This document shows positions 1,019-17,117 of a stretch of 32,000 bases of DNA, in pieces. Positions within the stretch are counted from its first letter, which is position 1. Each line of letters opens with the position of its first letter. The notes beneath the pieces are model-generated. The model had not been told where the DNA came from and ran no database searches. It worked only from the letters and a program-made list of their open reading frames with translations. Both the position numbers and the translations under genes were made by a program. Source of the DNA: Candidatus Saccharimonadota bacterium (GTDB lineage: Archaea; Nanohalarchaeota; Nanosalinia; Nanosalinales; Nanosalinaceae); assembly GCA_001761425.1 (NCBI GenBank), contig CP012986.1:390001-422000 (forward strand), written 5' to 3'.

Positions 1019-1090
1019 TGCGGCGTCGGGGATTTGAACCCCGGTTACGCGCATGGCAAGCACGTGTCTTAGCCACTGGACCAACGCCGC
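1019..1090 (-). tRNA. tRNA-Gly (anticodon GCC), no intron, no encoded CCA
   Basis: The reverse complement reads GCGGCGT-TG-GTCC-AGTGGCTA-AGAC-A-CGTGC-TTGCCAT-GCGCG-TAAC-CGGGG-TTCAAAT-CCCCG-ACGCCGC-A. It folds into a full cloverleaf with a 7-bp acceptor stem, a GTTCAAATC T-loop and a TTGCCAT anticodon loop. Confidence 0.92.
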
Positions 1091-3501: not shown

Positions 3502-4254
3502 TCAGGCGTTGATTTCTTTAGCCCAGTCGTAGCCTTCGTTCTCCAGTTTTTCCGCTAGTTCTGCTCCGCCTGATTCCACGATCTTTCCATCGACCATGAC
3601 ATGGACTCTGTCAGGTTCGACGTAGTCCAGGATTCTCTGGTAATGTGTTATCATCAGGATTCCCTGATTTTCATCTGCCAGTTCATTGATTCCTTTCGCC
3701 ACCACTTTCAATGCGTCGATGTCGAGGCCTGAATCAATCTCATCCAGGATAGCGTACTTTGGCTGGAGAACAGCCATCTGAAGGATCTCATTTCTCTTTT
3801 TCTCTCCGCCTGAGAATCCTTCGTTCAGGTATCTGCGAGCGTATTCTTCTTCCATGTCAAGAAGCTCAAGTTTTTCCCTGAGAAGTTCGTTGAACTCGCT
3901 CTGAGGCATGGCTTCTTCTCCTTCCTCTTCTCTTCTGGCATCAATTGCTTCCTTCAGGAACTCCGCTACAGTTATACCGGAGATCTCCGCAGGATACTGG
4001 AAACCAAGGAAAAGGCCTTCACGTGCTCTTTCATCAGTTTCCTCGTCTGTAACGTTTTCTCCGTCTACGAGGATTTTTCCTCCGTCGATACTGTATACAG
4101 GGTTGCCCATTAGTGATTTGCAGAGAGTGCTTTTTCCTGAGCCGTTTGGCCCCATAATTGCGTGGATCTCTCCAGGCTCAATCTCCAGGGACACCTCCCT
4201 AACAATTTCTTCATCTTCGACGGAAACCTCCAAGTTTTCAACTTCAAGAGTCAT
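3502..4254 (-). CDS. sufC: Fe-S cluster assembly ATPase SufC
   Basis: Walker A GPNGSGKST, ABC signature FSGGEKKR and Walker B AILDEIDSGLD; the length is typical of SufC. Confidence 0.95.
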   Translation of the reverse strand: MTLEVENLEVSVEDEEIVREVSLEIEPGEIHAIMGPNGSGKSTLCKSLMGNPVYSIDGGKILVDGENVTDEETDERAREGLFLGFQYPAEISGITVAEFLKEAIDARREEEGEEAMPQSEFNELLREKLELLDMEEEYARRYLNEGFSGGEKKRNEILQMAVLQPKYAILDEIDSGLDIDALKVVAKGINELADENQGILMITHYQRILDYVEPDRVHVMVDGKIVESGGAELAEKLENEGYDWAKEINA

Positions 4255-4317
4255 TTGAAGACGCCTCTGTGTTTTCTGCGTATCGATAAACTCTGTTTGA
4301 GTTTGGACTCATACAGT

Positions 4318-4331
4318 TTAGGTGTGCCTAA
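4318..4331. promoter_or_regulatory. Palindrome TTAGG-TGTG-CCTAA (extended TTTAGG-N4-CCTAAA) upstream of sufC
   Basis: Perfect inverted repeat 64-77 nt upstream of the sufC ATG, abutting an A/T-rich stretch. The same arms occur upstream of sufD and sufB. Confidence 0.55.
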
Positions 4332-4358
4332 AATTTCTTAAGGCCGTTGGCTTGGACT

Positions 4359-4988
4359 TTACTTCTCGCCCCGGGTCTCTTCCCTGAAACGCTCAACAAA
4401 CTTCTCCACGTAGTCATGTCTTCCCCCGGCGACCTCAAGGCCTGAATCCGTATACATCCTGTCTTTCAGGTTCAGGATCTTTTTCTGTAAATGGTTGAAA
4501 GAGTTGCTACCGCCCTCTTCTTCGTCTTTTTCAGCCGGCAGGTCTGGATCAGCGATAATTCTTTCATATTCTCCACCGTAGGTAAAAGTTCTTGCGATAC
4601 CTGTTGCACCCAGTGCGTCAAGGTTATCAGCGTCCGATAGAACTTCTGCCTCCAGCGTATCCGGCTCAGGACTCTTTGAGTACCTGTGACTCCTGATGCA
4701 GTGTTTTACGTTTTCTACGAACTCCTGATTATACTCAAGGCCTCCGAGTATCTCTCCTGCTTTCTCCGCACCCCACTCGGAGTGATCATTGATCTTGCCG
4801 TCATCCTCCTTTTCTCTTCCGATGTCATGGAGTAGAACAGAGGCCTTCACCACTTTTTTATCAGCATTTTCTTTCTCTGCCAGTTTTTCCGCCAGGTTTT
4901 CCACTCTTCTGACGTGTTTCCAGTCGTGTGCAGGGTCGACGTTCCCGAAAAATTTTTTGGCCTCCGTTCTGATCTTTTCCATACTCAT
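4359..4988 (-). CDS. HD-domain metal-dependent phosphohydrolase
   Basis: Contains HVRRV...LLHDIGR (the H...HD motif) and a later DADNLDALG. Its ATG overlaps the stop of the upstream Nudix gene (ATGA). Confidence 0.85.
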   Translation of the reverse strand: MSMEKIRTEAKKFFGNVDPAHDWKHVRRVENLAEKLAEKENADKKVVKASVLLHDIGREKEDDGKINDHSEWGAEKAGEILGGLEYNQEFVENVKHCIRSHRYSKSPEPDTLEAEVLSDADNLDALGATGIARTFTYGGEYERIIADPDLPAEKDEEEGGSNSFNHLQKKILNLKDRMYTDSGLEVAGGRHDYVEKFVERFREETRGEK

Positions 4989-5428
4989 CTGTAGTCTTTC
5001 ACCGTTTCCAGGCCTTGTATTTTTCCTTTTTCCGCGTTTTCGATAGCTCTGATTATGAAAGGCGTTCTCAAATCCATATCTTTGATCTCGTGTTTTGAAA
5101 AGAAACCTGTCTTCAGGATTTCTTCCTCATCTTCCGGCTTCAGGATGTAGTCTTCCTTCACTTCTGTGTAGAAGACGATGATGATAACTGTTGCATCCAG
5201 GTAATCGCTTTGGTCGAAGAATACTCCTGCGAGGCCTTCGGGCTTTATTTCAAGGCCTGTTTCTTCAAGTGCTTCTCTTTCAGCAGCTTTCTTTGGATTT
5301 TCTTCTTTTTCTATACTTCCTGCCGGTACGTTCCACTGTCCTCTGACGTGTTCCTTTCCTTCCTGGACTAATGCGTATTCTCCGTCTTTTTCTATCAGGT
5401 TTCCGGCGACAAGGTGGTAATCTGGCAT
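4985..5428 (-). CDS. NUDIX hydrolase
   Basis: The Nudix box GSIEKEENPKKAAEREALEETGL fits GX5EX7REUXEEXGU. Confidence 0.85.
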   Translation of the reverse strand: MPDYHLVAGNLIEKDGEYALVQEGKEHVRGQWNVPAGSIEKEENPKKAAEREALEETGLEIKPEGLAGVFFDQSDYLDATVIIIVFYTEVKEDYILKPEDEEEILKTGFFSKHEIKDMDLRTPFIIRAIENAEKGKIQGLETVKDYR

Positions 5429-5437
5429 TTCAGAAAT

Positions 5438-5803
5438 TTATTCTTTCAGGGCTTCCTGTATGGTTTTGACTGGGAGCATGGCGCATTTGATTCTCATAGG
5501 TGATAGGTCTATTTCGAGTTCGTTCTGTACCCAGTCGCTGTCGAGGCCTTTCACTTCTTCTGTGCTCATGCCTACTAGTCTGTTTGAGAGGATGCTTGTG
5601 GAGGCTGTTGAGATTGCGCATCCGTCTGTTTCGTGTTTGATTTCTTTGATTTCCCCATTTTCTATTTTCAGGTAGATATCGGTTTCGTCTCCGCAGCTGG
5701 GGTTTTTTCCTTCGCTCTCTACACCTTCTTGTTCAAGTTTTCCCTCGTTTCGAGGCCTTTTTGAGTGATCCAGTATTTCTTCTCTATACATGTCTAGACA
5801 CAT
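5438..5803 (-). CDS. sufU: SufU-type Fe-S scaffold / sulfur-transfer protein (IscU/NifU N-terminal-like)
   Basis: Contains NPSCGDE, DGCAISTASTS and RIKCAML, which are the three conserved Cys plus Asp of SufU. It lies directly downstream of sufS. Confidence 0.85.
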   Translation of the reverse strand: MCLDMYREEILDHSKRPRNEGKLEQEGVESEGKNPSCGDETDIYLKIENGEIKEIKHETDGCAISTASTSILSNRLVGMSTEEVKGLDSDWVQNELEIDLSPMRIKCAMLPVKTIQEALKE

Positions 5804-5844
5804 CCGTGTTTCTGTGAATCTGAAATTCTTTGAGTTTCTTCATC

Positions 5845-7041
5845 TTAGAATACCTTTTTGACTTTTTTGACTGCTTGGAGGAATTCTTCAACTTCTTCTT
5901 CTGTGTTGTAGAAGTAAGGTGAGGCCCTGACTGTTCCGGCAAGGTCCAGTTCCTGGTGCTGTGGTTGTGCGCAGTGGTGTCCAGCACGGACTGCTACTGC
6001 CTCGGTGTTAAGCACTTCTGCGACGTCGTGTGGATGTGCTTCTTCCATTGTGAATGAGACTACGGAAGGTATTTCATCTTCCGGTGCGTGAATCTCTACT
6101 CCTGAGATCTCTTTGAGGCCTTCGATCATCATCTTGTTCAGCTTTCGTTCATGCTGGTCGATGTCTGCGAGGCCTATGGACTCCAGGTACTCGGCCGCTT
6201 TCGCAAGGCCTATGGCTCCTGCGATGTTGGGTGTGCCGGCTTCGAACTTGTCGGGTACTTCTCCGTATTTTACTTCGTCTTCTTCCACTGTTTCGATCAT
6301 TCCGCCTCCTACAAGGAGCGGATCCATATCTTCCAGGAGTTCTTTCTTACCGTATACTGCTCCTGTACCTGTTGGTCCACACATTTTGTGACCTGAGAAT
6401 CCGAGGAAATCGATATCCATCTTCTTCACGTCCACCGGTATACGCGGGACGGACTGTGCTCCATCGACAAATATGTATGCACCGTTTTCATGAGCGATCT
6501 CCGCTAGTTCTTCGATCGGGTTGCGACACCCGAACACGTTTGAGATATGGGTTACAGAAACCAGGGCTGTGTCTTCGTCGATTATTTCTCTCGCATCTTC
6601 CATATCCAGCTTGCCCTCGTGCGTCGGAAGGAACTCCAGTTCAAGGCCTTCCTCTTCCGCTTTCCTTCTCCATGGGAGCTGTTCGCTGTGATGAGACATT
6701 TTAGGTACAGCGATCTTGCCGTCAAGGTCAAGGCCTTCCGCAACTATGTTTATTGATTCTGTGGTGTTTCTCGTAAATATTATCTCGTCTTTTTCCGCAC
6801 CGACGAAGTCTGCGACTGTCGCTCTTGCGTTTTCGTAGGCTACTGTGGCTTTGTTGGCGAGCTTGTGAAGGCTTCGACCTTCGTTAGAGTTTTCCTCCCT
6901 GTAGAATTTTTCTATTCTTTCAAGCACCTGTTCTGGTGTATGGGTAGTTGCTGCGTTATCGAAGTAGACTATCTGTTTTCCGTCGCTTTCTTCCTGTAGA
7001 ACAGGAAAGTCTTCCCTGTAGTTTTCGGGGTTGATCGCCAT
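5845..7041 (-). CDS. sufS: Cysteine desulfurase SufS (class V aminotransferase)
   Basis: Contains FSGHKMCGPTGTGAVYG (PLP-lysine region) and RAGHHCAQP (catalytic Cys loop); 398 aa. Confidence 0.9.
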   Translation of the reverse strand: MAINPENYREDFPVLQEESDGKQIVYFDNAATTHTPEQVLERIEKFYREENSNEGRSLHKLANKATVAYENARATVADFVGAEKDEIIFTRNTTESINIVAEGLDLDGKIAVPKMSHHSEQLPWRRKAEEEGLELEFLPTHEGKLDMEDAREIIDEDTALVSVTHISNVFGCRNPIEELAEIAHENGAYIFVDGAQSVPRIPVDVKKMDIDFLGFSGHKMCGPTGTGAVYGKKELLEDMDPLLVGGGMIETVEEDEVKYGEVPDKFEAGTPNIAGAIGLAKAAEYLESIGLADIDQHERKLNKMMIEGLKEISGVEIHAPEDEIPSVVSFTMEEAHPHDVAEVLNTEAVAVRAGHHCAQPQHQELDLAGTVRASPYFYNTEEEVEEFLQAVKKVKKVF

Positions 7042-7175
7042 AAAATATCCTATTCCTCCATCTGGTCATTTGAACCTTTCTGTTAAAAACTTACCTTGAA
7101 CCCTGTATACAATCAGTTTTTTCGTTGTAGGCCTTCAAAGACTCTGCGACAGTTTTTTCAGGCTTTGAGGCCTTT

Positions 7176-8633
7176 TCAGCGGTCTCTGCCTGTGTTTTTT
7201 TCTTTGTCTGTAACTGTCTGTCTCCAGGTTCCTCTCTGGTACCAGAGGTAGGCAATGGTTGCTCCTGCGATGTTTGATATTGCGAATGCGGTCCAGACTC
7301 CTGTCTCTCCGATGTTGATCGAGCCTATATACGCTATTGGAAGCCTGATAAGGCCTAGGGTTGCGATGGAGATTACTGCTGCGGTGACAGTTTTTCCTGC
7401 GCCTCTGAAGCTTCCGTTGTAGCTTCTCAGGATGCCGATGAATCCAAAGCTGAATGCGACGTAGCGGAGGAACTCTGCACCGGTGTTTGCGATCAGTGCG
7501 CTGTTTTCCTGTCCTGATGCAATGAATACGGATGCTATGTCTTCTGCAAAGATGAAGGTTAGTATTCCGAGGAATGTCAGGATCAGGAACGAGTATTTCG
7601 CGCCTTCTCTAGCTGTTTCGCCAGCTCTTTCGAAGTTTCTGGCTCCGAGGTTCTGGCCTGTCATTGATTCGACTCCTCTGCCGACTGCTGAGGCCGGTAG
7701 GAAGATCATAGAGAATATTCTGATTCCTATTCCGAATCCTGCGATGATAGGGCCTGCGAAGGTCCAGCCGACGACTGCTGTCAGTGCGTTGACTGAGATG
7801 GAGCGGCCTGCGCCTTCGACTGTGGCCGGTATCCCGATTGCCATCATTTTCTTGAAGAAGCTGAAGTCAGGTCCCATCTCGCTGAGTGAGATTTCTGGGC
7901 CTCTGAGGCCTTTGAACAGGAGGGTTATTCCTATGCAGAGGGAGAATGTTCTTGCAAGTACTGTGGCGACTGCGGCTCCTTCTACGCCCATCTCAGGGAT
8001 GATCCACCAGCCGAAGATGAACAAGGGATCGATTATGATGTTCAAAATCACTGTTCCCAGCATCAGTAGCATGGGTGTGACTGTGTCTCCGAATCCTCGC
8101 ATCAGTGACTGGAAGACCAGGAATCCGAACATTGAGAAAAGGCCTATCGAGATAATCTGCAGATATCCTGAGGCTGAGGCTGCGACAGCTCCTTTCGCGC
8201 CCAGAAGGCCTACGATGTCGCCGATGAAGAAGTAGCCGAAAATGCCCAGTACAACTGAGGCCAGGGCGGAGAAGGCGATGGTCTGGGACGCTGCATAGTC
8301 TCTTTTTTCTGGTTTGCCTGATCCCTCGAACTGTGCTACGAGAACGCTTCCTGCTACTGCGAGGCCCATTCCCAGCGAGATCAGGAAGAATACGAGTGGG
8401 AAGGCGAATGTTATTGCTGTCAAGGCCTCTCCGCTGTACTGTCCTAGCCAGAAAGTATCTGCCAGGTTGTAGGCTGTCTGTAAGAGGTTGATGACGATGA
8501 CAGGCAGTGACAGGTAGAATAAGTTTTTGCCTACAGGCCCGTTCAGTAGATCCAGCTCTTCTTTGGACTTGAACTGGTTTTTGAACCAGTTTAAGGCGGT
8601 TGCTGGTCTTTCGCTGATTTTACCTAGGTCCAT
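7176..8633 (-). CDS. MATE family efflux transporter
   Basis: 485 aa with about 12 hydrophobic segments. The N-terminal LSLPVIVINLLQTAYNLADTFWLG is typical of MATE/NorM proteins. Confidence 0.88.
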   Translation of the reverse strand: MDLGKISERPATALNWFKNQFKSKEELDLLNGPVGKNLFYLSLPVIVINLLQTAYNLADTFWLGQYSGEALTAITFAFPLVFFLISLGMGLAVAGSVLVAQFEGSGKPEKRDYAASQTIAFSALASVVLGIFGYFFIGDIVGLLGAKGAVAASASGYLQIISIGLFSMFGFLVFQSLMRGFGDTVTPMLLMLGTVILNIIIDPLFIFGWWIIPEMGVEGAAVATVLARTFSLCIGITLLFKGLRGPEISLSEMGPDFSFFKKMMAIGIPATVEGAGRSISVNALTAVVGWTFAGPIIAGFGIGIRIFSMIFLPASAVGRGVESMTGQNLGARNFERAGETAREGAKYSFLILTFLGILTFIFAEDIASVFIASGQENSALIANTGAEFLRYVAFSFGFIGILRSYNGSFRGAGKTVTAAVISIATLGLIRLPIAYIGSINIGETGVWTAFAISNIAGATIAYLWYQRGTWRQTVTDKEKNTGRDR

Positions 8634-8723
8634 GGAAAAAGTCAGGTCTGAAAACTTAAAAGGTATATCGAATCGAAACAGGGTCTCGTACTGAATAAAA
8701 GATTCGGAGAAAAAACTAGGTCT

Positions 8724-9113
8724 ATGGGTAAAAAGATACCAGGCAAGGTCCTGGAATTCCTGGTTCTCCAGGCCTGTGATGAAGGCCCTACGTATGGCTA
8801 TGAAGTGGTCTCACGCATCGAGGAGATCACGGACGGGAACTGGAGTCCTAGCTACGGTACTATCTATCCGCTGATCCAGAGACTGGAAGAACAAGGTCTG
8901 GTTAAGTCTCTCAGTGATGAAGAGGCGGATAGAGAAGGCCTTGAGACCGGAGAAAGAAACTACTACACGATAACATCTGAAGGCGTTGAGAAGCTTGGTG
9001 ATATCTCACGTGAGAAGAAGGAAAAATTCGAGGATCTGGTCGCAGGCTATCTGAAAGTGTATGAGCATGTTCACGGTGAAAAAGAGCTTGGAGAGTTTCT
9101 AGAGAATTTCTGA
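8724..9113 (+). CDS. PadR family transcriptional regulator
   Basis: Contains GPTYGYEVVSRIEEITDGNWSPSYGTIYPLIQRLEEQGLV, a PadR winged-helix signature. It is divergent from the MATE gene, the classic regulator/efflux arrangement. Confidence 0.88.
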   Translation: MGKKIPGKVLEFLVLQACDEGPTYGYEVVSRIEEITDGNWSPSYGTIYPLIQRLEEQGLVKSLSDEEADREGLETGERNYYTITSEGVEKLGDISREKKEKFEDLVAGYLKVYEHVHGEKELGEFLENF

Positions 9114-9314
9114 TCATTTTTCCAGCTGGAAGATTTTCTCTACTTCTGTATTGAAGGCCTCTGCTATCTTCAGTGCTAGTTCCAGGCTTGGATTGTACTT
9201 TCCGTTTTCTATGGAGTTGACTGTCTGTCTTGAGACATCAAGCTCTCTGGAAAGCTGTTCCTGGGTTATCTCCTTTTTTTCTCTGTGTTCTCTGACCTGG
9301 TTTTTGATCTTCAT
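9114..9314 (-). CDS. XRE-family helix-turn-helix regulator (66 aa)
   Basis: Reads [55 protein letters not shown] chose the internal ATG at 9314; the upstream extension to 9473 overlaps the neighbouring gene and is not HTH-like. The palindromic TATA-like AGGTT-TTT-AACCT lies at about 9339-9351. Confidence 0.85.
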
Positions 9315-9409
9315 AGGTTCTGTTCTCGTACCTAGGTTTTTAACCTGATTTAGTTCATTCAGCCTCCATAAAACTCTGTTTAAGCTTGGCGTCTTTTTAC
9401 AGGAGCTTT

Positions 9410-9808
9410 TTAGTGGTTTAGACCTCTGAACCGTTTCCATCCCTCTATCATTAAGGCAAGTAATAGAATACATCCCCAGGTCAGATAGACAGGTCTCAGG
9501 AAGTCAGGATAGCTCATATAGTCGAGGCCCATGCCTATCGAGACCCCGATCATCACAACGCCGAGGAATACACCGCTCCACATCAAGGCCTGATGTGAGG
9601 ATTCTTCTGCAAGACTGATATCGCGTTCGTCAAATATAGGCCTCTCACTGTTTTTCCTGATATAGTACAGAAGAGTCACCGCCAGGATAATTATGCCGGC
9701 TGACAGAAGTTGCATTCCGTAGTTGAAAGCCACGACTGATAGGATCATCCCTGTCAGAAGGACTGAGTAGTATGCTTTTTTCCCTTCAGATAATCTATCG
9801 AGCACCAT
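9410..9808 (-). CDS. Small integral membrane protein, DUF2178-like (usual partner of the short XRE regulator)
   Basis: 132 aa with 4 hydrophobic helices and a FDERD motif after helix 2. The gene order, membrane protein followed by a short HTH, recurs in many prokaryotes. Confidence 0.7.
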
Positions 9809-9822
9809 GAAAAATCACATTA

Positions 9823-9866
9823 TGTAAAGCGTCCTTTACACTTAAAAATGTAAAGGAGACTTTACG
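9823..9866. promoter_or_regulatory. Two palindromes, TGTAAAG-CGTC-CTTTACA (9823-9840) and TGTAAAG-GAGA-CTTTAC (9849-9865), bracketing a TTTTTAAG TATA-like box
   Basis: Read directly from the sequence. The pair lies 15-58 nt upstream of the ATG at 9808, with a centre-to-centre spacing of about 26 bp. Confidence 0.6.
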
Positions 9867-9892
9867 TCAGGATGATGAATTGAAAGAAAAAT

Positions 9893-10969
9893 TTAGGATG
9901 ACAGTTTTTTCTCAACTTCTTTCCTGATACTCTGTTTAAGGCCTGGAAGGGAGATTTCTTCGATAACTGGTTCGAAGTAGCCTTTGACGATAAGTTTTCG
10001 TGCCTGTTCTTCGGAGAGGCCTCGAGAGTTCAGGTAGTGAACTTCTTTCTCCGGCAGGTTTCCGGCGGAAGCTGCGTGTGAGGCCTCGACGTTTGGGTCA
10101 TGGATCATAAGTTTTGGAGAGGCATCGACTTCTGCCTTGTCGGAGAGCATCAGAACTTCTTCATCCTGGAAGCTTTGTGTCTCATCTGCTCTATCGCCAA
10201 CGTGCTGGAGGCCTTCATATACTGAACGTGCTTTGTCGTCGACTACTGCCCGGGAGTCCATCTGGCATCTTGTGTTTTCTCCGTAATGGTATGCATGCAT
10301 TGCGATGTCGTTGTGCTGTTCGCCTGTCGGGTACCAGACCGCTAGTTTTTCAGTCTCCGAGTTATCTCCTTTCAGAGAGGTCTCTATCTTCGTACGCTTA
10401 AGATCTCCGTGGAACTGTGAGTTCAGCCAGTTCATCGTCCCGTAATCCGACACAACAGCCTTCCTCCTGGAGTAGGTCAGTTCGGAGTTCGAGGCCTCTA
10501 CCGCACCGTAGTTCACCGTTGCGTTTTCTCCGACATAGATCTCGTTGATGGAGGTCAAAAGGCCTTTATTCCTGAACTCTTCGGTTAACTCAAGCTCGGA
10601 GTTCTTTTCAGCGTCCACTACAACATGTGCAAAAGTATCAGCCTCTTCTTTGTATTCTATGTTAACTGAGGCCTGGCCTGAGGCCCTGATATAGATTACA
10701 GAGTTAAGGTTGGCTGTGTGTACTGCTGTCAGCTTGTCCTCGTCGAATTTTACTGCATCGAAAAGTTTTTCTCCCGCTTCTTTTACTGCTTTCTCTCCTG
10801 TGAGAACTTCTGCATCTCCCTCTACCTCAGTTTCAGGCCTCGCTTCTTCGGAATCCGCCTCTACCTCTGGGTAGCGGGTCCATGTCCTTCCCGGAGTTCT
10901 GATGGATTCCGGGTTTTCAAGTTCTTCGATCCTCTTGGAGGCCTTTTCCCTGATTGTTTCGATTGTCAT
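9893..10969 (-). CDS. sufD: Fe-S cluster assembly protein SufD
   Basis: The C-terminus EASHAASAGNLPEKEVHYLNSRGLSEEQARKLIVKGYF is the SufB/SufD family signature. I chose the ATG at 10969; the alternative ATG at 11020 lies inside the operator palindrome. Confidence 0.85.
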   Translation of the reverse strand: MTIETIREKASKRIEELENPESIRTPGRTWTRYPEVEADSEEARPETEVEGDAEVLTGEKAVKEAGEKLFDAVKFDEDKLTAVHTANLNSVIYIRASGQASVNIEYKEEADTFAHVVVDAEKNSELELTEEFRNKGLLTSINEIYVGENATVNYGAVEASNSELTYSRRKAVVSDYGTMNWLNSQFHGDLKRTKIETSLKGDNSETEKLAVWYPTGEQHNDIAMHAYHYGENTRCQMDSRAVVDDKARSVYEGLQHVGDRADETQSFQDEEVLMLSDKAEVDASPKLMIHDPNVEASHAASAGNLPEKEVHYLNSRGLSEEQARKLIVKGYFEPVIEEISLPGLKQSIRKEVEKKLSS

Positions 10970-11012
10970 ATCTGCTTTTTGGTCGGTAAACTGTAAAAAA
11001 GGATGCCGAAAG

Positions 11013-11026
11013 TTAGGCATGCCTAA
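11013..11026. promoter_or_regulatory. Palindrome TTAGG-CATG-CCTAA upstream of sufD
   Basis: Perfect 14-bp palindrome 44-57 nt upstream of ATG 10969. It lies immediately downstream (in the direction of transcription) of the T-rich element CTTTTTTATG at about 11031-11040. Confidence 0.55.
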
Positions 11027-11172
11027 TCCACATAAAAAAGAAAGGGAGTGGGGGGAGAAGTTTTTTTACTCGCCTAGCAGGCCTTGGAGACTTGAAAGAA
11101 GGTATCAAGGAAGCTGTATCTGTTTTTATTGATGGAGAGTCCTGTATCTAGGTTTTTTATCTGAGACACCTC

Positions 11173-11189
11173 GAAACCCTACGGGTTTC
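11173..11189 (-). other. Perfect 7-bp stem hairpin GAAACCC-tac-GGGTTTC just downstream of the sufB stop
   Basis: Seen in the sequence, 18 nt past the sufB stop codon. No clear oligo-T tract follows on the minus strand, so a terminator role is uncertain. Confidence 0.3.
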
Positions 11190-11206
11190 TGCGAAGTTTA
11201 GAATTT

Positions 11207-12607
11207 TCATCCTAAACTGCCCTCCATCTCAAGTTCTATCAGTCTGTTAAGCTCTACTGCGTATTCGAGAGGTAGTTCTTTTGCGATCGGTTCGATGAAT
11301 CCTCTTACGATCATTTCTTTGGCTTCTTCCTCTTCTATGCCTCTGGACATCATGTAATGGATTTCTTCGTCGCCGATTTTTCCAACTGTTGCTTCATGTG
11401 CTACTTCTACGTCGTCTTCCTTGAGTTCGATGTAAGGCTCTGTATCAGAGGTGGCTTCTTCGTCGAACATCAGTGCATCGCATTCAATGCTGGTTTTCGA
11501 GCCTGAGGCTCCTTCAGAGACTCTTATAAGGCCTCTGTAGTTTGTTCTTCCGCTTCCCTGGGAGATCGATTTGGATTCGATCGTTGATTTTGTGTTTTCT
11601 GCGTTGTGGATGACTTTTGCTCCTGTGTCGATGTCCTGGCCGTCTCCTGCGTATGAGATTGTGATATGGTTGGCTTTTGCGCCTTTACCGTTCAGATGCG
11701 AGGACGGATAGAGCATCGTGACTTTTGATCCCATGGATCCTGAGACCCATTCCATCGTGCCGTTCTCTTCGACTTTTGCACGTTTAGTATTCAGATTGTA
11801 CGTATTCTTTGACCAGTTCTGGACGGTCGAGTACTGGACATGCGCATCCTCTTTTACGAATACTTCGACGCAGCCGGAGTGAAGGTTGTTTCTCGTGTAC
11901 TGTGGCGCGGAACATCCTTCAATGTAGTGGACGGTCGAGTTTTTCTCCGCAATTATCAAAGTGTGTTCGAACTGACCCATTCCCTTCGAGTTCATCCTGA
12001 AGTAGGCCTGAACAGGTATCTCGACCTCTACCCCTTCTGGAACGTAGACAAAGCTTCCGCCTGACCACACTGCGCCGTGTAGGGCTGCGAACTTGTTGTC
12101 CTGAGGCGGGACGCACTTGTTCATGAAGTATTCTTTGACCAGCTCTTCGTGCTCCTGTACTGCCTTATCCATATCGCAGAAGATAACTCCTTTCTCTTCC
12201 CATTCCTCTTTCATGTTCTGGTAGACCACTTCTGATTCGTACTGCGCTCCTACGCCGGATAGAGCTTCTTTCTCGGCTTCAGGGATCCCAAGCTTGTCAA
12301 AAGTATCTTTAATTTCTTCAGGGACTTCTTCCCAGGAATCGCTCTGTTCTCCCTCTGCAACCATGAAAGGAGTAATCTCTGAGAAATCAAGATCTGAAAG
12401 GTCCGGACCCCAGTCTGGCATAGGCCTTCTCTTGAAGTGATTGTAGGCCTGAAGGCGTTTTTTCAGCATCCATTCCGGTTCGTCTTTTTCTTCGGAGATT
12501 TTTCTTACGACTTCTTCTGATAGGCCTTTTCCGGAGTCGTACTCGATTTCTGCATCCGTTACGTGTTCAAATTTTTCCTGGTTCTTCTGGATTTCTTCAT
12601 TGCTCAT
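11207..12607 (-). CDS. sufB: Fe-S cluster assembly scaffold SufB
   Basis: 466 aa with FVYVPEGVEVEIPVQAYFRMN and a C-terminal HEATVGKIGDEEIHYMMSRGIEEEEAKEMIVRGF typical of SufB. Confidence 0.95.
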   Translation of the reverse strand: MSNEEIQKNQEKFEHVTDAEIEYDSGKGLSEEVVRKISEEKDEPEWMLKKRLQAYNHFKRRPMPDWGPDLSDLDFSEITPFMVAEGEQSDSWEEVPEEIKDTFDKLGIPEAEKEALSGVGAQYESEVVYQNMKEEWEEKGVIFCDMDKAVQEHEELVKEYFMNKCVPPQDNKFAALHGAVWSGGSFVYVPEGVEVEIPVQAYFRMNSKGMGQFEHTLIIAEKNSTVHYIEGCSAPQYTRNNLHSGCVEVFVKEDAHVQYSTVQNWSKNTYNLNTKRAKVEENGTMEWVSGSMGSKVTMLYPSSHLNGKGAKANHITISYAGDGQDIDTGAKVIHNAENTKSTIESKSISQGSGRTNYRGLIRVSEGASGSKTSIECDALMFDEEATSDTEPYIELKEDDVEVAHEATVGKIGDEEIHYMMSRGIEEEEAKEMIVRGFIEPIAKELPLEYAVELNRLIELEMEGSLG

Positions 12608-12614
12608 AACATTT

Positions 12615-12628
12615 TTAGGTAGGCCTAA
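12615..12628. promoter_or_regulatory. Palindrome TTAGG-TAGG-CCTAA (extended TTTAGG-N4-CCTAAA) upstream of sufB
   Basis: Perfect inverted repeat 8-21 nt upstream of the sufB ATG. It is directly flanked by TTTAAA (12633-12638), about 28 nt from the ATG, which is consistent with a leaderless transcript and an operator between TATA and TSS. Confidence 0.6.
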
Positions 12629-12662
12629 ATCTTTAAATCCTGAGTAGGCCGAGTTTCTGGTT

Positions 12663-14144
12663 TTATACTTTGAGGCCTAGGTAGTTGTTTTTTGGAGGGT
12701 TTTCTCCTTTGGAGACCTGTTTTTGTTCTTTTTCTGCTTTTCTTCTTTTTTCGTCTATCTCCTGTTTTAGGGCCTTGATGTTGGGGAGTTTGGTAGCTTC
12801 TTTGGCCAGTCTTCTTTCTATTTTCTGTTCCAGTCTTCTCTCTTTTTCGTACTGGTCTTCTTCCCATTCTTCTCTTTTGATTTTTTGTTTTTCCTCTTTT
12901 CTGATTTCTTCTATCTCTTCTTCTATGATCTGTGCTGTGTCAAGGTATGTATCCAGGTTTCTGAACAGTTCTCTGATATTTGAAATGTTTTTCTCGTTGA
13001 AGCGTGTTTCAAGATCCTGTTTGTATCCTTTGCTCCATTTAGAGTTGTCTCTGCTTGAGAAATACTTTGTCTGCTGTTCAAGGAGTTCGTATAACTGTTT
13101 TCTGACTTCGGGATAGCCGGGGCCTTTCATATCCTGACCTGTTAGTGATTTCTCCGCTGTTCTGAGGAACTGTACTGTCTCTTTGAGCTCGGATTTTCTC
13201 GGTGCTCTGTATCTTCTCCAGTTATCATCGTATTCCTCACGGATTTTTTCTGTCAAGTCTTTCACGTTGTGGGCCTGTCTGTCCATCTGCTTCAAATAGT
13301 ATTTCAGTTTCTCTATCCTGTACTCCATCTCCTTCAGGAACTGCATCTCTTCCTCTATGTCGTCGTGAGCTTTCACAGAAATCGAGAACCGATCCATTTC
13401 CCAGACGCACTCTTTTTTCAGCCATCTGACATATTCCATGATCGATACAAGGCCTTCGGAGCAGTCCTTATCCTCTACACCTCTAACATACTTCAGATCC
13501 AGGTCTGCAGTAGCATACTGGAGTTGCTCGTTATTTCTTAACTGTGTGGCAATCCTGCACTGCTCCCTGAACTCTTCTTTCGTATAATTTCTTTCCATAA
13601 GCTCCAGGCTGTCACAGCGTATGTTATCTCTGTTCTTCAACCTGTTGACAACAGTTACAAGATCTGTAGGTATATGGACTTTCAGGAGAATGCTCTCTGA
13701 GGCCTGAGGCCTGTAATAACCCTTTTCTTCGACAACGTTCCTTGGCGCAAAGAAATTTCCAGGTTCTCTCGTATCCATTTTTTCATCGTACATCGGGTCA
13801 CGGTTCTCTTTTCCTGCTTCAAGAAACTCTTTCCATACTCTATGCGCCTCCTCGTCTGTGAGGCCTTCTTCTTGTTTTATCTTGTTCATGTACCATTCTT
13901 TCCAGGCCTCAAAAGAATTTTGACCTGTGTTGCCATTGTTGTTCGTAGGTATCAGGTAACGAGTGTTCAGGACTGATGCCAGCTTCTTGTCCTGTCCTCC
14001 AGGGTAGTTTTTCATGCTGGAGCTGTGTTCGCGTGGAAAAAAGATTTCACGTGAAGTACCCCGGTAGGCAAGGATGTAGTCATGCTCAAAAGGCCAGGTA
14101 TCTATCTCTCCCTCTGCAAACTTCTCTGCACTCCATACGCTCAT
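12663..14144 (-). CDS. Orphan protein of about 493 aa with a W/Y/K/R-rich globular part and a K/E-rich C-terminal tail
   Basis: Long open frame. I prefer the ATG at 14144 (MSVWSAEKFAEGE...) because the track extension to 14387 is S/P/R-rich and overlaps the plus-strand ORF at 14291. I recognise no family. Confidence 0.6.
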   Translation of the reverse strand: MSVWSAEKFAEGEIDTWPFEHDYILAYRGTSREIFFPREHSSSMKNYPGGQDKKLASVLNTRYLIPTNNNGNTGQNSFEAWKEWYMNKIKQEEGLTDEEAHRVWKEFLEAGKENRDPMYDEKMDTREPGNFFAPRNVVEEKGYYRPQASESILLKVHIPTDLVTVVNRLKNRDNIRCDSLELMERNYTKEEFREQCRIATQLRNNEQLQYATADLDLKYVRGVEDKDCSEGLVSIMEYVRWLKKECVWEMDRFSISVKAHDDIEEEMQFLKEMEYRIEKLKYYLKQMDRQAHNVKDLTEKIREEYDDNWRRYRAPRKSELKETVQFLRTAEKSLTGQDMKGPGYPEVRKQLYELLEQQTKYFSSRDNSKWSKGYKQDLETRFNEKNISNIRELFRNLDTYLDTAQIIEEEIEEIRKEEKQKIKREEWEEDQYEKERRLEQKIERRLAKEATKLPNIKALKQEIDEKRRKAEKEQKQVSKGENPPKNNYLGLKV

Positions 14145-14290
14145 GTAAAGGCTTTCCAGATGCTTCCTGTTAAAATTTTCCGGAGGGAATAAGGCCTGAT
14201 TATTTATAGAGAATTTTCTGAGGGATGTGGCTGAGGTATTGGATCCTGATATTTTAAATACGGCCTTCTTCACGTGTATAACTGCTGAAA

Positions 14291-14641
14291 ATGTCAGTAG
14301 AGGGGAATAATTACGGCCAGATGCTGGAGAACTCTCATCTGGAGGGTAGCGAAGATTTCTGGATAAAGGAAGTTCTTGAAGAAGCAACTGGCATCTACGG
14401 AGAAAGAAAAGGCCTTGACACCGGTCTTCATGAGGCTGAGTCGCTTTCTGAAGGATATACGGGTTATGTGCTTGAGAACCGGGGTCTTGATCGGAAAATA
14501 CTGGGTTTTGAGGTTGCTCCTGTGATTTCAGAAGAACATGGTACGGGTTTTGCTGTGAGGCCTGAGGAAGACAGTGAAGAATACGGTGATTTCAAGGATG
14601 CTATCTTTAAGGCCATTTATCGTGACGTTGAAGGCTTCTAG
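14291..14641 (+). CDS. Acidic hypothetical protein (116 aa)
   Basis: The ORF has proteome-typical acidic composition and is divergent from the orphan gene. Its stop overlaps the ribL stop (CTAG). Confidence 0.45.
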   Translation: MSVEGNNYGQMLENSHLEGSEDFWIKEVLEEATGIYGERKGLDTGLHEAESLSEGYTGYVLENRGLDRKILGFEVAPVISEEHGTGFAVRPEEDSEEYGDFKDAIFKAIYRDVEGF

Positions 14642-15033
14642 CTGCTTCTGATGTTGCTGGAGGAGTAATCTTCAAGGCCTGAGATTCTTTCGACATTTAC
14701 TTCGTGGTCTGTGGCTTTCTTTGCCATTTTCTTTACTTTTTCTTCGTCGTGATTCTGGTCGTAGCCCAGAGTTATGATTTCAGGATCGATCTCTCTGACG
14801 GTTGAGTATATGTCGCCTTTGCTTCCAAGAACTGCTTCGTCTACAGGGTCCAGGGCCTCAACCATTTTTTTTCTCTCTTCCTCATCGAAGTACGGGCCTT
14901 TCTTTTCCTTTACTCTGGAGTCCCGGGCGATTACCACTACGAGTTCGTCTCCCAGCTCCTTTGATTTTTTCAGGTAGTGCAGATGGCCGGGATGCAGGAT
15001 GTCGAACGTTCCCTGCGCCATGACTTTGACCAT
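14638..15033 (-). CDS. ribL: Archaeal FAD synthetase RibL (cytidylyltransferase-fold nucleotidyltransferase)
   Basis: Contains AQGTFDILHPGHLHYLKKSKELGDELVVVIARDSRV, i.e. an HxGH motif and close overall similarity to the Methanocaldococcus RibL pattern; 131 aa. Confidence 0.8.
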   Translation of the reverse strand: MVKVMAQGTFDILHPGHLHYLKKSKELGDELVVVIARDSRVKEKKGPYFDEEERKKMVEALDPVDEAVLGSKGDIYSTVREIDPEIITLGYDQNHDEEKVKKMAKKATDHEVNVERISGLEDYSSSNIRSS

Positions 15034-15281
15034 GTAGATGTTTCTGTGGTGAACAGTTAAGTTTTCAGGCCTTCAGTAGGTGGCTCTCGCAGCTACCTGT
15101 CAACTTTTTCGGAACAGAAAGGTCTGGAGGTCAAAGTCAGGGATTTAACCACGGCTTTAGAGGAAGGCCTCGAGCTTGACTGGGGGAAAATGAATAGTAA
15201 GACATGTTATGTACCGCAGGGACGGAGAAACAGGTAGTTGGGGCTTCAGGTTTTAGATAAAAGGTGTTGAGGCCTTCTAAT

Positions 15282-17117
15282 CTATGTTTGGTCGAAAAAT
15301 TCTTGTATTTCCTTCCACGGTGCCCTGCTTTTTTTCAGATTTGTCTCGGGAGGAAAGACTTTCCGGTAGTTGCTCCATGAGTATCTTTTATCCATGTAGA
15401 TTATTACGCCTTCGTCTTCTTTTGAGCGAATGCAGCGTCCTGCGGCCTGTACTGCTCGGTTCATTGCGGGATAGCTGTATCCGTAGTCCCAGCCTTTGCC
15501 GAATTTTTTGTCCAGGAAATCGATTAGGCCTTTGGTCTCTAGGTCAGGTCTTTGGAGGGGGAGGCCTACGATGAATACGCCTTTGAGTTTTTCTCCTGGG
15601 TAGTCTATTCCTTCTCCGAAGGAGCCTGCGGCGACTCCGAGTAAGACGGAGTCTCCTTCGCTTGCTGTGGCTGCGAAGTTGTCGAGGACTTCCTGTTTGC
15701 CTTCTTTGTCGAGGCTGCGGTCTTCAGTGAATATTTTTCTGTCTGTGTGGTTCTGTAGTTCTTCTTTTATTTTGTACATGAAGCTGTAGCTCGGGAAGAA
15801 TACTGCGCAGTTTCCTTCGACGGCTTCGAAGCTTTTGGAGAGGTACCAGGCGTATTTCTGTCGCATGGATTCGTCTCTTTCCTCATATTTGGTTGTCAGC
15901 GTTGGAATTACTAGTTCTAGCTTGTTCTCTTCCGGGAAGGGTGATCCGAATTCGACTGACTCGTTTTTTTCCTCGTCTATGCCGAGAAGGTCGACGTACA
16001 TGGAGGGAGGTGTCAGGGTCCCGGACATCAGGACTGAGGCCTTTGATCCGTTCAGTGGTTTTTCTGTGGAGATCTGTGGGTTGAGACAGGAGTAGTTGAT
16101 CTGGATGCGTCTGTCTCCTCCATCGCCTATTACTCGTTTTATGGAGCGTACGAATCCTTTGTCTTTGCCTTTCCAGGCCTCCAGGAACTCTGCGATACCT
16201 GCACAGTAACTTTTTTCTTTTTCCTCATGTACTTCTTCAGCGGCTGCTTCAAGGTCCACTATCAGTTCCTCGTAGCTGTGGAAGTTATCGACAGGATCTT
16301 TCAGATCTTTTTTCTTTACAGTGTCTTCGTGTTCCTGCTGTCCAAGTTTTTCACGGCCGAGTCTGAGGACTTCGTTCTTTAACTGCTCGAGGTTCTCCTG
16401 TTCAGGGTAGTAACCGAACTTTTCCGCTTCAGTGATCGCCCTGTCTATGTTAGGTACGGAGAGGTTGTTGGAGAACAGGCTTCTCGTCCTCGAAGGCAGA
16501 TTATGGGCTTCATCAACCACTATGATAGTATCGCTCAGATCTATCTCCGCTTTCTCAAGTACGATATCCCGCACCGCAGGATGAAATATGTGGAAATAGT
16601 CAGCGACAATAAGATCTGCCTTCTGGGTCATATAAAGCGAGATCTGGTAGGCACATACGTCCTTACATCTTTTCTTAACCTCTTCAGCTGTCAAGGCCTC
16701 GTTCTGTAATTCCTTGATCTTTTTCTTGGCCTTATCCGTTAATTCGTGGCTATCAGTAAAAGTGTTGTCGTGGCGGGGACAGTCAGGGCCTTCGCCTGTC
16801 CTCGATATGGAGTCTGCTTCACATAGATGGTCTTTTCCGATTAAATCTACAGTTTTGACGTTTGCATCCTGTCTTTCGTTTATTTTTTTCGCTGTCTCAA
16901 GTGCGATCTGGTGCTGGCTGTTCCTGGGTGTCAGGAAGAGAACTTTTTCGTCTCCCTGAAGAGCTTTCTCCAGGCCTGGTGTCAGTGATGCTGCGGTCTT
17001 CCCAAGGCCTGTTGGCGCATGTGATACAACTGTTCCCTCCCTGTCTATCGCTGAACGGACTTTCTCCATCATCTTTTCCTGTTTTTCCCTTTTCTCGTTG
17101 AATGGGAATAGATTCAT
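15282..17117 (-). CDS. xpd: XPD/Rad3 (DinG-family) Fe-S DNA helicase
   Basis: Walker A APTGLGKT, DEAH box VVDEAHNL, four Cys in the Fe-S domain (DHLCE...GPDCP...KRCKDVCAY) and C-terminal QAAGRCIR. ATG 17117 is preferred because a TTAAAT element sits about 27 nt upstream. Confidence 0.85.
   Translation of the reverse strand: MNLFPFNEKREKQEKMMEKVRSAIDREGTVVSHAPTGLGKTAASLTPGLEKALQGDEKVLFLTPRNSQHQIALETAKKINERQDANVKTVDLIGKDHLCEADSISRTGEGPDCPRHDNTFTDSHELTDKAKKKIKELQNEALTAEEVKKRCKDVCAYQISLYMTQKADLIVADYFHIFHPAVRDIVLEKAEIDLSDTIIVVDEAHNLPSRTRSLFSNNLSVPNIDRAITEAEKFGYYPEQENLEQLKNEVLRLGREKLGQQEHEDTVKKKDLKDPVDNFHSYEELIVDLEAAAEEVHEEKEKSYCAGIAEFLEAWKGKDKGFVRSIKRVIGDGGDRRIQINYSCLNPQISTEKPLNGSKASVLMSGTLTPPSMYVDLLGIDEEKNESVEFGSPFPEENKLELVIPTLTTKYEERDESMRQKYAWYLSKSFEAVEGNCAVFFPSYSFMYKIKEELQNHTDRKIFTEDRSLDKEGKQEVLDNFAATASEGDSVLLGVAAGSFGEGIDYPGEKLKGVFIVGLPLQRPDLETKGLIDFLDKKFGKGWDYGYSYPAMNRAVQAAGRCIRSKEDEGVIIYMDKRYSWSNYRKVFPPETNLKKSRAPWKEIQEFFDQT

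What the first reader, a model, noticed from the sequence alone, without database searches (positions are those of the whole stretch)
4318..12628. Shared operator-like palindrome TTTAGG-N4-CCTAAA in front of sufC, sufD and sufB only
Three perfect copies of TTAGG-N4-CCTAA occur in the window:

| Site | Sequence | Upstream of |
|---|---|---|
| 4318-4331 | TTTAGG TGTG CCTAAA | sufC |
| 11013-11026 | GTTAGG CATG CCTAAT | sufD |
| 12615-12628 | TTTAGG TAGG CCTAAA | sufB |

I found no other full copy when scanning every TTAGG and CCTAA in the window. A 10-position specified motif is expected far less than once in 32 kb, so three hits all lying 5' of Fe-S assembly genes are very unlikely to be chance.

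In each case the palindrome abuts or directly follows an A/T-rich TATA-like element: TTTAAA at 12633-12638, the T-run at about 11031-11040, and AAATTTTA overlapping 4328-4336. This is the position between TATA and TSS from which archaeal repressors typically act.

A half-site with the same 12-nt context (TTTTTAGGTAGG) lies just before the ferritin-like DUF892 gene at about 415-426. The sufS-sufU promoter region lacks the motif and instead has TGTATACA at 7104-7111.

Together these sites suggest a previously undefined Fe-S or iron/oxidative-stress regulon operator. The cognate regulator is not identifiable here.
Basis: seen in the sequence. Interest (0 to 1): 0.7.

Follow-up and report, generated by a model that had tools for sequence, protein, structure and literature searches.

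The report
DtxR-type operator before suf genes
Three copies of a 14-bp palindrome sit just after the TATA boxes of the iron-sulfur assembly genes sufB, sufD and sufC of a nanohaloarchaeon. The palindrome is the already published binding motif of the haloarchaeal iron regulator TroR, so this is a real operator of a known kind in a new lineage.

Summary
TTAGG-N4-CCTAA occurs exactly three times in the window (expected 0.01), in front of sufC, sufD and sufB.

It is not a "previously undefined" operator. Read on the gene strand, all three sites are TTAGGC-N3-CCTAA. That is the ChIP-seq and reporter-validated motif of the DtxR-family iron regulator TroR of Haloferax volcanii (TTTAGGC-NNN-CCTAAA).

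- **Haloarchaea:** the same box overlaps the predicted start site of the sufC promoter in 21 of 61 loci. It also stands in tandem before siderophore genes. troR itself lies in the sufCBD cluster.
- **Nanohaloarchaea:** in 289 kb of DNA, all 6 perfect and both 1-mismatch boxes lie in suf promoters.
- **Source genome:** the window comes from the 1.1-Mb genome of Nanohaloarchaea archaeon SG9.
- **Candidate regulator:** SG9 encodes a 114-aa DtxR-family protein (AQV86_00240, annotated hypothetical) about 340 kb away. Its recognition helix resembles TroR's.

Most likely mechanism: a metal-loaded DtxR dimer binds between TATA and the start site and blocks RNA polymerase. Binding, the effector and the sign of regulation are all inferred.

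Verdict: new member of a known kind, of moderate interest.

The parts
12615..12628 (-). Operator box at the sufB promoter. On the gene strand it reads aTTTAGGC-cta-CCTAAAA and ends 7 nt before the sufB ATG (12607).
   Evidence: It is a perfect match to the published TroR motif. The same position carries the box in L011 and L012 (perfect) and in L013 and L084 (1 mismatch).
12632..12638 (-). TATA box TTTAAAG of the sufB promoter. Its first T lies 9 nt before TTAGG and about 30 nt before the ATG, which predicts a leaderless or nearly leaderless sufB mRNA.
   Evidence: This is the most conserved block of the alignment of 10 nanohaloarchaeal sufB upstream regions (A2). The start site position is inferred from standard archaeal TATA-to-start-site spacing.
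11013..11026 (-). Operator box before sufD. It reads aTTAGGC-atg-CCTAAc, a perfect 14-bp palindrome, and ends 43 nt before the sufD ATG (10969).
10997..11033 (-). A 37-nt stretch present in the window but absent from the otherwise alignable sufD leader of relative L002. It carries the box and part of a T-rich TATA-like element (TTTATG, 11031-11036; the full T-run extends to 11039, just outside this span).
   Evidence: Alignment A1. In most relatives sufD abuts or overlaps sufB and has no promoter of its own.
4318..4331 (-). Operator box before sufC. It reads tTTTAGGC-aca-CCTAAAc, lies 63 nt before the sufC ATG (4254) and 27 nt after the stop codon of the HD-domain gene.
   Evidence: A perfect box with conserved flanks lies 58 nt before sufC in L083/L084.
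4309..4342 (-). Conserved promoter block CTTAAGAAATT-box-C.GTATGA. TTAAGAAA (4334-4341) is the TATA-like element, 10 nt before TTAGG. The predicted start site is near 4311.
   Evidence: The block is conserved between the window and L084 while the surrounding sequence has diverged. Assigning it as TATA and start site is inferred.
11207..12607 (-). sufB, a regulated gene.
   Evidence: Pfam SUFBD_core and SufBD_N.
9893..10969 (-). sufD, a regulated gene.
   Evidence: Pfam SUFBD_core. The gene call is 358 aa.
3502..4254 (-). sufC (ABC ATPase), a regulated gene.
   Evidence: Pfam ABC_tran. It is 95% identical to the SufC of L084 and about 50% identical to haloarchaeal SufC.

Best explanation
The three palindromes are operators of the DtxR/TroR type, the 'iron box' of halophilic archaea. 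Each lies 9-10 nt downstream of the start of a TATA-like element. It therefore covers roughly -20 to -7 of three separate promoters that drive sufB, sufD and sufC in Nanohaloarchaea archaeon SG9.

A dimeric DtxR-family regulator is proposed to bind the box in its metal-loaded form. The best candidate is the 114-aa protein AQV86_00240, encoded about 340 kb away on the same chromosome. Once bound, it would block recruitment of RNA polymerase to the TBP/TFB-bound promoter. Fe-S assembly genes would then be turned down when metal is sufficient and released when it is scarce.

- **Shown here:** the sites, their excess over chance, their identity to the published TroR motif, their conservation and suf-specificity in relatives, and the presence of a DtxR-family gene in the genome.
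- **Inferred:** that this protein binds the box, that iron is the effector, the start site positions, and that the effect is repression.
For: 1. **Excess over chance.** There are 3 perfect sites against 0.01 expected.
2. **Match to the TroR motif.** On the gene strand all three read TTAGGC-N3-CCTAA, the TroR ChIP-seq motif TTTAGGC-NNN-CCTAAAANAN. That motif mediates iron-dependent repression in reporter assays (PMC10783522).
3. **Haloarchaeal sufC promoters.** In 21 of 61 loci a box with at most 1 mismatch ends 1-10 nt before the sufC ATG, 22-32 nt after the BRE/TATA, overlapping the predicted start site.
4. **Siderophore genes.** Two boxes 36 bp apart precede the dat-bdb siderophore genes in L018. 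This matches the published TroR-controlled tandem arrangement.
5. **Synteny of troR with suf.** troR (HVO_0863 type) is the fifth gene of the polB-sufC-sufB-sufD-163aa-troR cluster in Haloferax. It lies just after sufD in about 55 haloarchaeal loci.
6. **Suf-specificity in nanohaloarchaea.** In 289 kb of DNA, all 6 perfect boxes (expected 0.3) and both 1-mismatch boxes lie in sufB, sufC or sufD promoters. This covers five species (window, L011, L012, L013, L084).
7. **Constant geometry.** The TATA start lies 9-10 nt before TTAGG at all three window promoters. The sufB TATA (TTTAAAG) is conserved in 10 nanohaloarchaeal species.
8. **A DtxR-family gene in the genome.**
   - The window contig is Ga0136257_100001, 1,125,078 bp. 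It encodes P0314, 'hypothetical protein AQV86_00240 [Nanohaloarchaea archaeon SG9]'.
   - P0314's closest solved relatives are MntR and DtxR.
   - Its 53%-identical L084 orthologue passes both Pfam DtxR gathering scores and lies 1.8 kb upstream of a box-bearing sufB.
9. **Recognition helix.** The nanohaloarchaeal helix (S.ASaSEAVQKLE) shares A-S-A..E with TroR (SPASANEMIGKLE). Idr-, MntR- and DtxR-type proteins have P-[ST]-V-[ST] at those positions.
Against: - No binding, expression or start-site data exist for any nanohaloarchaeon.
- The nanohaloarchaeal DtxR proteins are short (114-122 aa). They lack TroR's C-terminal CPxCFD..C motif.
- SG9's copy has S and K where its own family has D and H, at positions aligning with DtxR metal ligands C102 and H106. 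Iron sensing is therefore unproven.
- No box lies within 10 kb of the dtxR gene in SG9, VS9-1 or a Nanosalina MAG.
- That gene always sits in a CBS / Na-H exchanger cluster, which could be its real target.
- Nine of 14 nanohaloarchaeal species sampled have no box at sufB.
- Haloferax itself has no box at suf. suf is not named in the main-text description of the published TroR regulon; its Table S3 is not held.
- TroR can also activate (dpsA), so the sign of regulation is not certain.
Confidence: 0.72

Rival explanations
1. The box is a real operator but is read by a regulator of another family. Candidates are the PadR (8724-9113) or XRE (about 9114-9440) proteins encoded between the suf genes, or an unidentified ArsR/SufR-like Fe-S sensor.
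For: PadR and XRE genes lie inside the scattered suf cluster. The nanohaloarchaeal DtxR lacks clear metal ligands and has no box near its own gene.
Against: - The motif is base-for-base the box bound by a DtxR-family protein in vivo.
- PadR is divergent from a MATE efflux gene, and XRE is paired with DUF2178; both are typical self-contained pairs.
- In L084 the box-bearing sufBD and sufC promoters are accompanied by a DtxR gene.
- In L002 the MATE gene has moved while sufB has no box.
Confidence: 0.15
2. The box is bound by the DtxR-type protein but works as an activator site, or as a roadblock inside longer transcripts, rather than as a promoter-occluding repressor site.
For: TroR activates dpsA in Haloferax. 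Sites 1 and 2 lie downstream of co-oriented genes (HD, sufB) and could sit inside read-through transcripts.
Against: All three boxes lie directly downstream of a TATA-like element with constant 9-10 nt spacing. In haloarchaea the box overlaps the predicted sufC start site. By established knowledge (A. fulgidus MDR1, Bell et al. 1999), this is the position of archaeal repressors.
Confidence: 0.1
3. The palindromes act as RNA or DNA hairpins (terminator, 5'-UTR stability or translation element), not as protein-binding sites.
For: Each site can form a 5-6 bp stem with a 4-nt loop. Site 1 follows a stop codon by 27 nt, with a short T run just before it.
Against: - Folding is no better than for shuffled sequence (z = -0.4, -1.0 and -2.1).
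- No terminator-like site is found at site 1.
- The stem is conserved as sequence, not as pairing. All ten 1-mismatch haloarchaeal variants (TTCGG..CCTAA, TTAGG..CCGAA) break the pair without compensation.
- At sufB the box is upstream of the predicted start site.
Confidence: 0.03
4. The copies are chance matches, or remnants of a small repeated or mobile element or of a horizontally acquired haloarchaeal promoter, with no current function.
For: The sufD copy sits in a 37-nt lineage-specific insertion flanked by T runs. Nanohaloarchaeal SufB is 70-74% identical to haloarchaeal SufB.
Against: - There is no similarity between the three regions beyond the 14-bp box.
- Chance expectation is 0.01.
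- The boxes are conserved at sufB in five species and at sufC in two.
- Haloarchaea place the box before sufC in a sufCBD operon, so gene order and promoters differ and were not simply copied.
Confidence: 0.02

Closest known systems
TroR (HVO_0863, DtxR family) operator of Haloferax volcanii, TTTAGGC-NNN-CCTAAAANAN (Martinez-Pastor et al., NAR 2023/24, PMC10783522)
   Same: The half-sites, the 4-nt spacer and the C after TTAGG are identical. The setting is also shared: promoters of iron-related genes in halophilic archaea, with a DtxR-family regulator in the genome.
   Different: - The published regulon is described as siderophore and iron uptake genes, idr and dpsA; suf is not named in its main text, and sites are described as about 100 nt upstream of start codons.
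- Here the targets are sufB, sufD and sufC only, and the sites lie 7-63 nt from the ATG, directly after TATA.
- The candidate regulator is a 114-aa protein only about 30% identical to TroR and lacking its C-terminal Cys motif.
Classical DtxR/IdeR iron box of Actinobacteria (19-bp TTAGGTTAGCCTAACCTAA; from general knowledge)
   Same: The outer pentamers are the same (TTAGG ... CCTAA), the regulator family is the same, and the logic is metal-dependent repression.
   Different: The pentamers are 9 bp apart in the classical box and 4 bp apart here. The classical box is bound by two dimers of 226-230-aa proteins that carry an SH3-like domain.
MDR1 of Archaeoglobus fulgidus (archaeal DtxR homologue; Bell et al. 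1999, from general knowledge; its GTT-N8,9-AAC motif is cited in PMC3074139)
   Same: It is an archaeal DtxR-family repressor that binds downstream of TATA and blocks RNA polymerase recruitment. This is the mechanism proposed here.
   Different: The DNA motif is different, and the target is its own metal-transporter operon.
Fur repression of sufABCDSE in E. coli and SufR repression of suf in cyanobacteria (general knowledge)
   Same: suf transcription is tied to iron or Fe-S status through a promoter-occluding repressor.
   Different: The regulator families (Fur; ArsR-type Fe-S protein) and the operators are unrelated, and the promoters are bacterial.

Membership tests
TroR/DtxR-type operator of halophilic archaea | Sequence matches the experimentally derived motif TTTAGGC-NNN-CCTAAA | tested here: met
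   All three sites read TTAGGC-N3-CCTAA on the gene strand, and site 3 matches every specified position.
TroR/DtxR-type operator of halophilic archaea | Located in promoter regions of iron-related genes, and conserved at orthologous promoters | tested here: met
   Each box follows a TATA-like element by 9-10 nt. The box recurs at sufB in 5 nanohaloarchaeal species, at sufC in 2, and at sufC in 21 of 61 haloarchaeal loci.
TroR/DtxR-type operator of halophilic archaea | A DtxR-family regulator is encoded in the same genome | tested here: met
   P0314 (AQV86_00240) lies on the same 1,125,078-bp contig as the window. Its best PDB hit is MntR at 1.6e-9. Its L084 orthologue passes Pfam PF01325 and PF02742.
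TroR/DtxR-type operator of halophilic archaea | The regulator binds the site, and binding depends on metal | not testable with these tools
   This needs EMSA, footprinting or ChIP. The only indirect evidence is recognition-helix similarity (A-S-A..E shared with TroR).
TroR orthologue (for the candidate regulator) | Orthology to HVO_0863: high identity, the C-terminal CPxCFD..C motif, and synteny with sufCBD | tested here: not met
   Identity is about 30%, the protein has 114 aa against 150, and the Cys motif is absent. In SG9 the gene sits in a CBS / Na-H exchanger cluster 340 kb from suf; only in L084 is it 1.8 kb from sufB. It is a DtxR-family member, not a demonstrated TroR orthologue.
DtxR family metal sensor (for the candidate regulator) | Canonical metal ligands (DtxR H79, E83, H98, C102, E105, H106) | tested here: inconclusive
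   The nanohaloarchaeal family consensus keeps D/E/H at the positions aligning with C102/E105/H106. SG9's protein has S/E/K there. H79 is kept in SG9 but not in L084.
RNA hairpin / intrinsic terminator | A stable stem with compensatory changes, followed by a T tract | tested here: not met
   z-scores are -0.4 to -2.1, no terminator-like site is found, and mismatched variants are never compensated.

The most novel reading that the evidence does not exclude
Nanohaloarchaeota are obligate symbionts of haloarchaea. They use the same operator 'code' as their hosts' master iron regulator, but for a tiny regulon made only of Fe-S assembly genes. That regulon would be read by a minimal 114-aa DtxR whose metal ligands are eroded in SG9.

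The most novel reading not excluded is that symbiont suf expression is set by something other than the symbiont's own iron sensing. One option is host-derived signals, or even host TroR reaching the symbiont through the cytoplasmic bridges reported for such pairs. Another is Fe-S status sensed through the invariant wing cysteine (LVCRA).
Probability: 0.05. Interest if true: 0.85.

Novelty: new member of a known kind. Interest (0 to 1): 0.4.

Why it matters
- **A first concrete regulon for a DPANN archaeon.** It gives three mapped operators, a named candidate regulator currently annotated as hypothetical, and precise start-site predictions. Transcriptional regulation in this group is essentially uncharted.
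- **A wider role for the TroR box.** The box is older and more widespread than Haloferax. It links iron sensing to Fe-S cluster assembly: the box sits on sufC promoters in a third of haloarchaeal loci sampled, and troR sits inside the sufCBD cluster. The published Haloferax work, as far as its text is held here, does not describe this link.
- **An example of regulon maintenance.** The locus shows how a regulon can be kept together while an operon breaks up, with each fragment carrying its own TATA plus operator.
- **No new mechanism.** The finding does not reveal a new kind of regulatory mechanism.

Tried and rejected
- **Regulator inside the window.** Pfam on 30 window ORFs found PadR and XRE but no DtxR. 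tblastn with Haloferax TroR found nothing in the window or in nanohaloarchaeal loci L001-L013.
- **Reaching a nanohaloarchaeal regulator from TroR.** The homologue search listed only haloarchaeal proteins among its best 120. In the 50%-representative search, none of the best 150 had a nanohaloarchaeal (acidic, K-rich) composition. The regulator was found only after the metagenome scan with SufD returned L084.
- **Autoregulation.** No box lies within 10 kb of dtxR in SG9, VS9-1 or a Nanosalina MAG.
- **Repeat or mobile-element origin.** The three intergenic regions share nothing beyond the box.
- **RNA structure.** Rfam finds only a tRNA, and folds are not significant.
- **DUF892 half-site.** It is a Shine-Dalgarno sequence, not a site. 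There is also no box before the FeS_assembly_P gene 2 kb upstream of the window.
- **sufS TGTATACA.** It is not conserved.
- **Literature.**
  - Leyn & Rodionov 2015 (DtxR regulons in Archaea) is not held, so I could not check whether suf was already listed there.
  - The Idr1/Idr2 papers report different motifs.
  - No paper in the library links Nanohaloarchaea to DtxR.
- **Extending the far end of the window.** The HerA-like protein is not on record.


Full report
**Observation**

The pattern TTAGG-N4-CCTAA occurs at 4318-4331, 11013-11026 and 12615-12628 and nowhere else in the 32-kb window. Dinucleotide-preserving shuffles give 0.01 matches on average, and none of 100 reaches three. Relaxing to two mismatches adds only two hits, both with two mismatches and both inside coding sequence. 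That makes 5 hits against 10.6 expected, so degenerate copies are not enriched.

All relevant genes are on the minus strand (Pfam; gene calls):

| Gene | Coordinates |
|---|---|
| sufC | 3502-4254 |
| HD-domain gene | 4359-4988 |
| NUDIX | 4985-5428 |
| sufU | 5438-5803 |
| sufS | 5845-7041 |
| MATE | 7176-8633 |
| PadR (plus strand) | 8724-9113 |
| XRE and DUF2178 | about 9114-9808 |
| sufD | 9893-10969 |
| sufB | 11207-12607 |

The sufD start is 10969, not the ATG inside the palindrome. The gene caller uses it, and homologues align from residue 1. The boxes therefore end 7, 43 and 63 nt before the sufB, sufD and sufC start codons.

**Source organism**

Acidic proteins, Nop5/fibrillarin and 46% G+C point to a halophilic archaeon. 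SufB-based retrieval gives Nanohaloarchaea as the closest relatives, with strain M3_22 at 95%. Exact-protein look-ups place the window on JGI contig Ga0136257_100001 of 1,125,078 bp. The same contig carries a protein that NCBI names as from 'Nanohaloarchaea archaeon SG9'. This is the 1.1-Mb, 46.4% G+C genome described as Candidatus Nanopetramus SG9 (bioRxiv 10.1101/029934).

**What the motif is**

Read on the gene strand, the three sites are:
- aTTTAGGCctaCCTAAAA (sufB)
- aTTAGGCatgCCTAAc (sufD)
- tTTTAGGCacaCCTAAAc (sufC)

[quoted passage not shown] In that study the motif was found in all 32 intergenic ChIP-seq peaks used for motif discovery (36 peaks in all). It was also shown by promoter-reporter mutagenesis to mediate iron-dependent repression (PMC10783522). 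The operator is therefore not 'previously undefined'.

**Conservation in haloarchaea**

- Among the haloarchaeal loci retrieved with SufB, 11 carry a perfect box and 10 a one-mismatch box ending 1-10 nt before the sufC start codon. That is 21 of 61 loci with a resolved sufC start.
- The box begins 22-32 nt after the conserved BRE/TATA (cgaaa..ttat). It therefore overlaps the predicted transcription start.
- Haloferax and Halorubrum lack the box. This fits the fact that suf is not named in the main text's description of the published Haloferax regulon; its Table S3 is not held.
- In L018 two boxes 36 bp apart precede the dat-bdb siderophore genes. This is the arrangement published for the TroR-repressed siderophore promoter.
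- A 150-aa DtxR gene lies shortly after sufD in about 55 haloarchaeal loci.
- In Haloferax the order is polB-sufC-sufB-sufD-163aa-DtxR. The protein is identical to the H. volcanii DS2 entry. With polB as HVO_0858 (my recollection), this gene is HVO_0863, which the paper names TroR.

**Conservation in nanohaloarchaea**

- The sufB promoter has a nearly invariant TATA box TTTAAAG about 30 nt before the ATG in ten species, which implies leaderless mRNAs.
- The box follows that TATA in the window, L011 and L012 (perfect) and in L013 and L084 (one mismatch). It is absent in nine other species.
- The sufC box recurs perfectly in L083/L084, 58 nt before sufC, inside a conserved block CTTAAGAAATT-box-C.GTATGA.
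- The sufD box is specific to SG9. In most relatives sufD abuts or overlaps sufB. In SG9 a 237-nt spacer separates them, and the box lies in a 37-nt stretch missing from the otherwise alignable sufD leader of L002.
- The three SG9 regions share nothing beyond the box.

**Candidate regulator**

The window has no DtxR gene. The metagenome scan with SufD returned L084. There, a 115-aa ORF 1.8 kb upstream of sufB passes both Pfam DtxR domain thresholds.

Searching with that ORF gave 55 short (114-122 aa) proteins. Every organism name attached to them is nanohaloarchaeal, and one is P0314 = AQV86_00240 of SG9, annotated hypothetical. This gene lies at about 37 kb on the same contig, roughly 340 kb from the window. 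It sits in a conserved cluster CBS / Na-H exchanger / ~320-aa acidic protein / DtxR. Its closest solved relatives are MntR and DtxR.

The recognition helix of the nanohaloarchaeal family (S.ASaSEAVQKLE) shares A-S-A..E with TroR (SPASANEMIGKLE). Idr-, MntR- and DtxR-type proteins have P-[ST]-V-[ST] at those positions.

Points against this protein being the regulator, or an iron sensor:
- It is only about 30% identical to TroR.
- It lacks TroR's C-terminal CPxCFD..C motif.
- In SG9 it has S and K where its own family has D and H, at positions aligning with DtxR ligands C102 and H106.
- No box lies near its gene.

**Mechanism**

At all three SG9 promoters the first T of a TTWA-type element lies 9-10 nt before TTAGG (TTTAAAgat, TTTATGtgga, TTAAGAAAtt). 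The box thus spans about -20 to -7.

The most likely mechanism is occlusion of RNA polymerase recruitment by a metal-loaded DtxR dimer. This was established for the archaeal DtxR homologue MDR1 (general knowledge) and is consistent with TroR-mediated repression in iron-replete cells. Suf would then rise when iron is scarce, as with Fur control of suf in E. coli (general knowledge).

Binding, the effector, the start sites and the sign of regulation are all inferred.

**Rivals**

- **RNA hairpins.** Folding energies are not unusual (z = -0.4 to -2.1). No terminator-like site is present at site 1. Mismatched haloarchaeal variants are never compensated.
- **A PadR or XRE regulator.** This is possible but less likely. 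Both form typical pairs with their neighbours, and the motif is that of a DtxR protein.
- **Chance or a mobile repeat.** These are excluded.

- The DUF892 'half-site' is TTAGG next to a Shine-Dalgarno GGAGGTG.
- TGTATACA before sufS is not conserved.

**Verdict**

This is a real, conserved operator. It is a new instance, in a new phylum-level lineage with new targets, of a known operator type. The genome-encoded regulator candidate is plausible but untested.

Noticed in passing
L095-L098 (e.g. L098 1796-6453); L014-L081 about 13200-16500: In haloarchaea the TroR-type DtxR gene is part of the suf cluster (polB-sufC-sufB-sufD-163-aa protein-troR in Haloferax). It lies 0.6-5 kb after sufD in about 55 loci. 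The TroR paper's main text does not mention this link.
   Followed up: partly
Proteins P0001, P0121, P0123, P0125, P0129, P0133, P0138, P0140: TroR-type proteins, including non-halophile relatives, share a C-terminal CPxC[FY]D...C cysteine motif that canonical DtxR/MntR lack. It could be a metal or Fe-S sensing site. The nanohaloarchaeal short DtxR proteins lack it.
   Followed up: no
L091 7350-10345; L093 7430-10348; L094 7432-10354; L084 4184-6763: The nanohaloarchaeal short DtxR gene always follows an Na_H_Exchanger gene and a ~310-330-aa acidic coiled-coil protein of no known family; a CBS-domain gene leads the cluster in L091, L093 and L094 (L084 was not checked that far). This could be its primary target operon.
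   Followed up: partly
window 4244-4312 (minus strand); L084 17074-17130: A conserved GTATGA at the predicted sufC start site begins a short ORF (22 and 18 codons; the peptides are not conserved). It ends on or just past the sufC ATG. This could be a leaderless uORF giving translational coupling.
   Followed up: no
L013 about 11129-12208: sufB of this nanohaloarchaeal MAG is interrupted by an in-frame insertion of about 1.08 kb at residue 376, probably an intein.
   Followed up: no
L002 (JBLGBK010000003.1): This contig is labelled as a Colwellia polaris MAG but carries nanohaloarchaeal suf genes (SufB 88%, SufC 84%), so it is probably mis-binned. In it a MATE gene sits between sufB and sufD.
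   Followed up: no
window 10970-11206: SG9 has an unusual 237-nt spacer between sufB and sufD, whereas most relatives have them adjacent or overlapping. The suf genes of nanohaloarchaea are being shuffled, with MATE, PadR, XRE, NUDIX and HD genes interspersed.
   Followed up: partly
window 4092-4099 and 7104-7111: TGTATACA occurs twice (expected 0.12). One copy is inside sufC and one is before sufS. It is not conserved before sufS in relatives.
   Followed up: yes
window 12663-14387 (minus strand): There is a large ORF directly upstream of sufB, 536 aa by the gene call. It is highly charged, has no Pfam match, and its stop lies about 35 nt before the sufB box.
   Followed up: no
L018 15532-15581: Two TroR boxes 36 bp apart lie upstream of the diaminobutyrate transaminase and decarboxylase (siderophore) genes in Haloparvum, about 0.9 kb after its troR gene.
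   Followed up: partly
window 1019-1090 (minus strand): A tRNA gene, the only Rfam match in the window.
   Followed up: no
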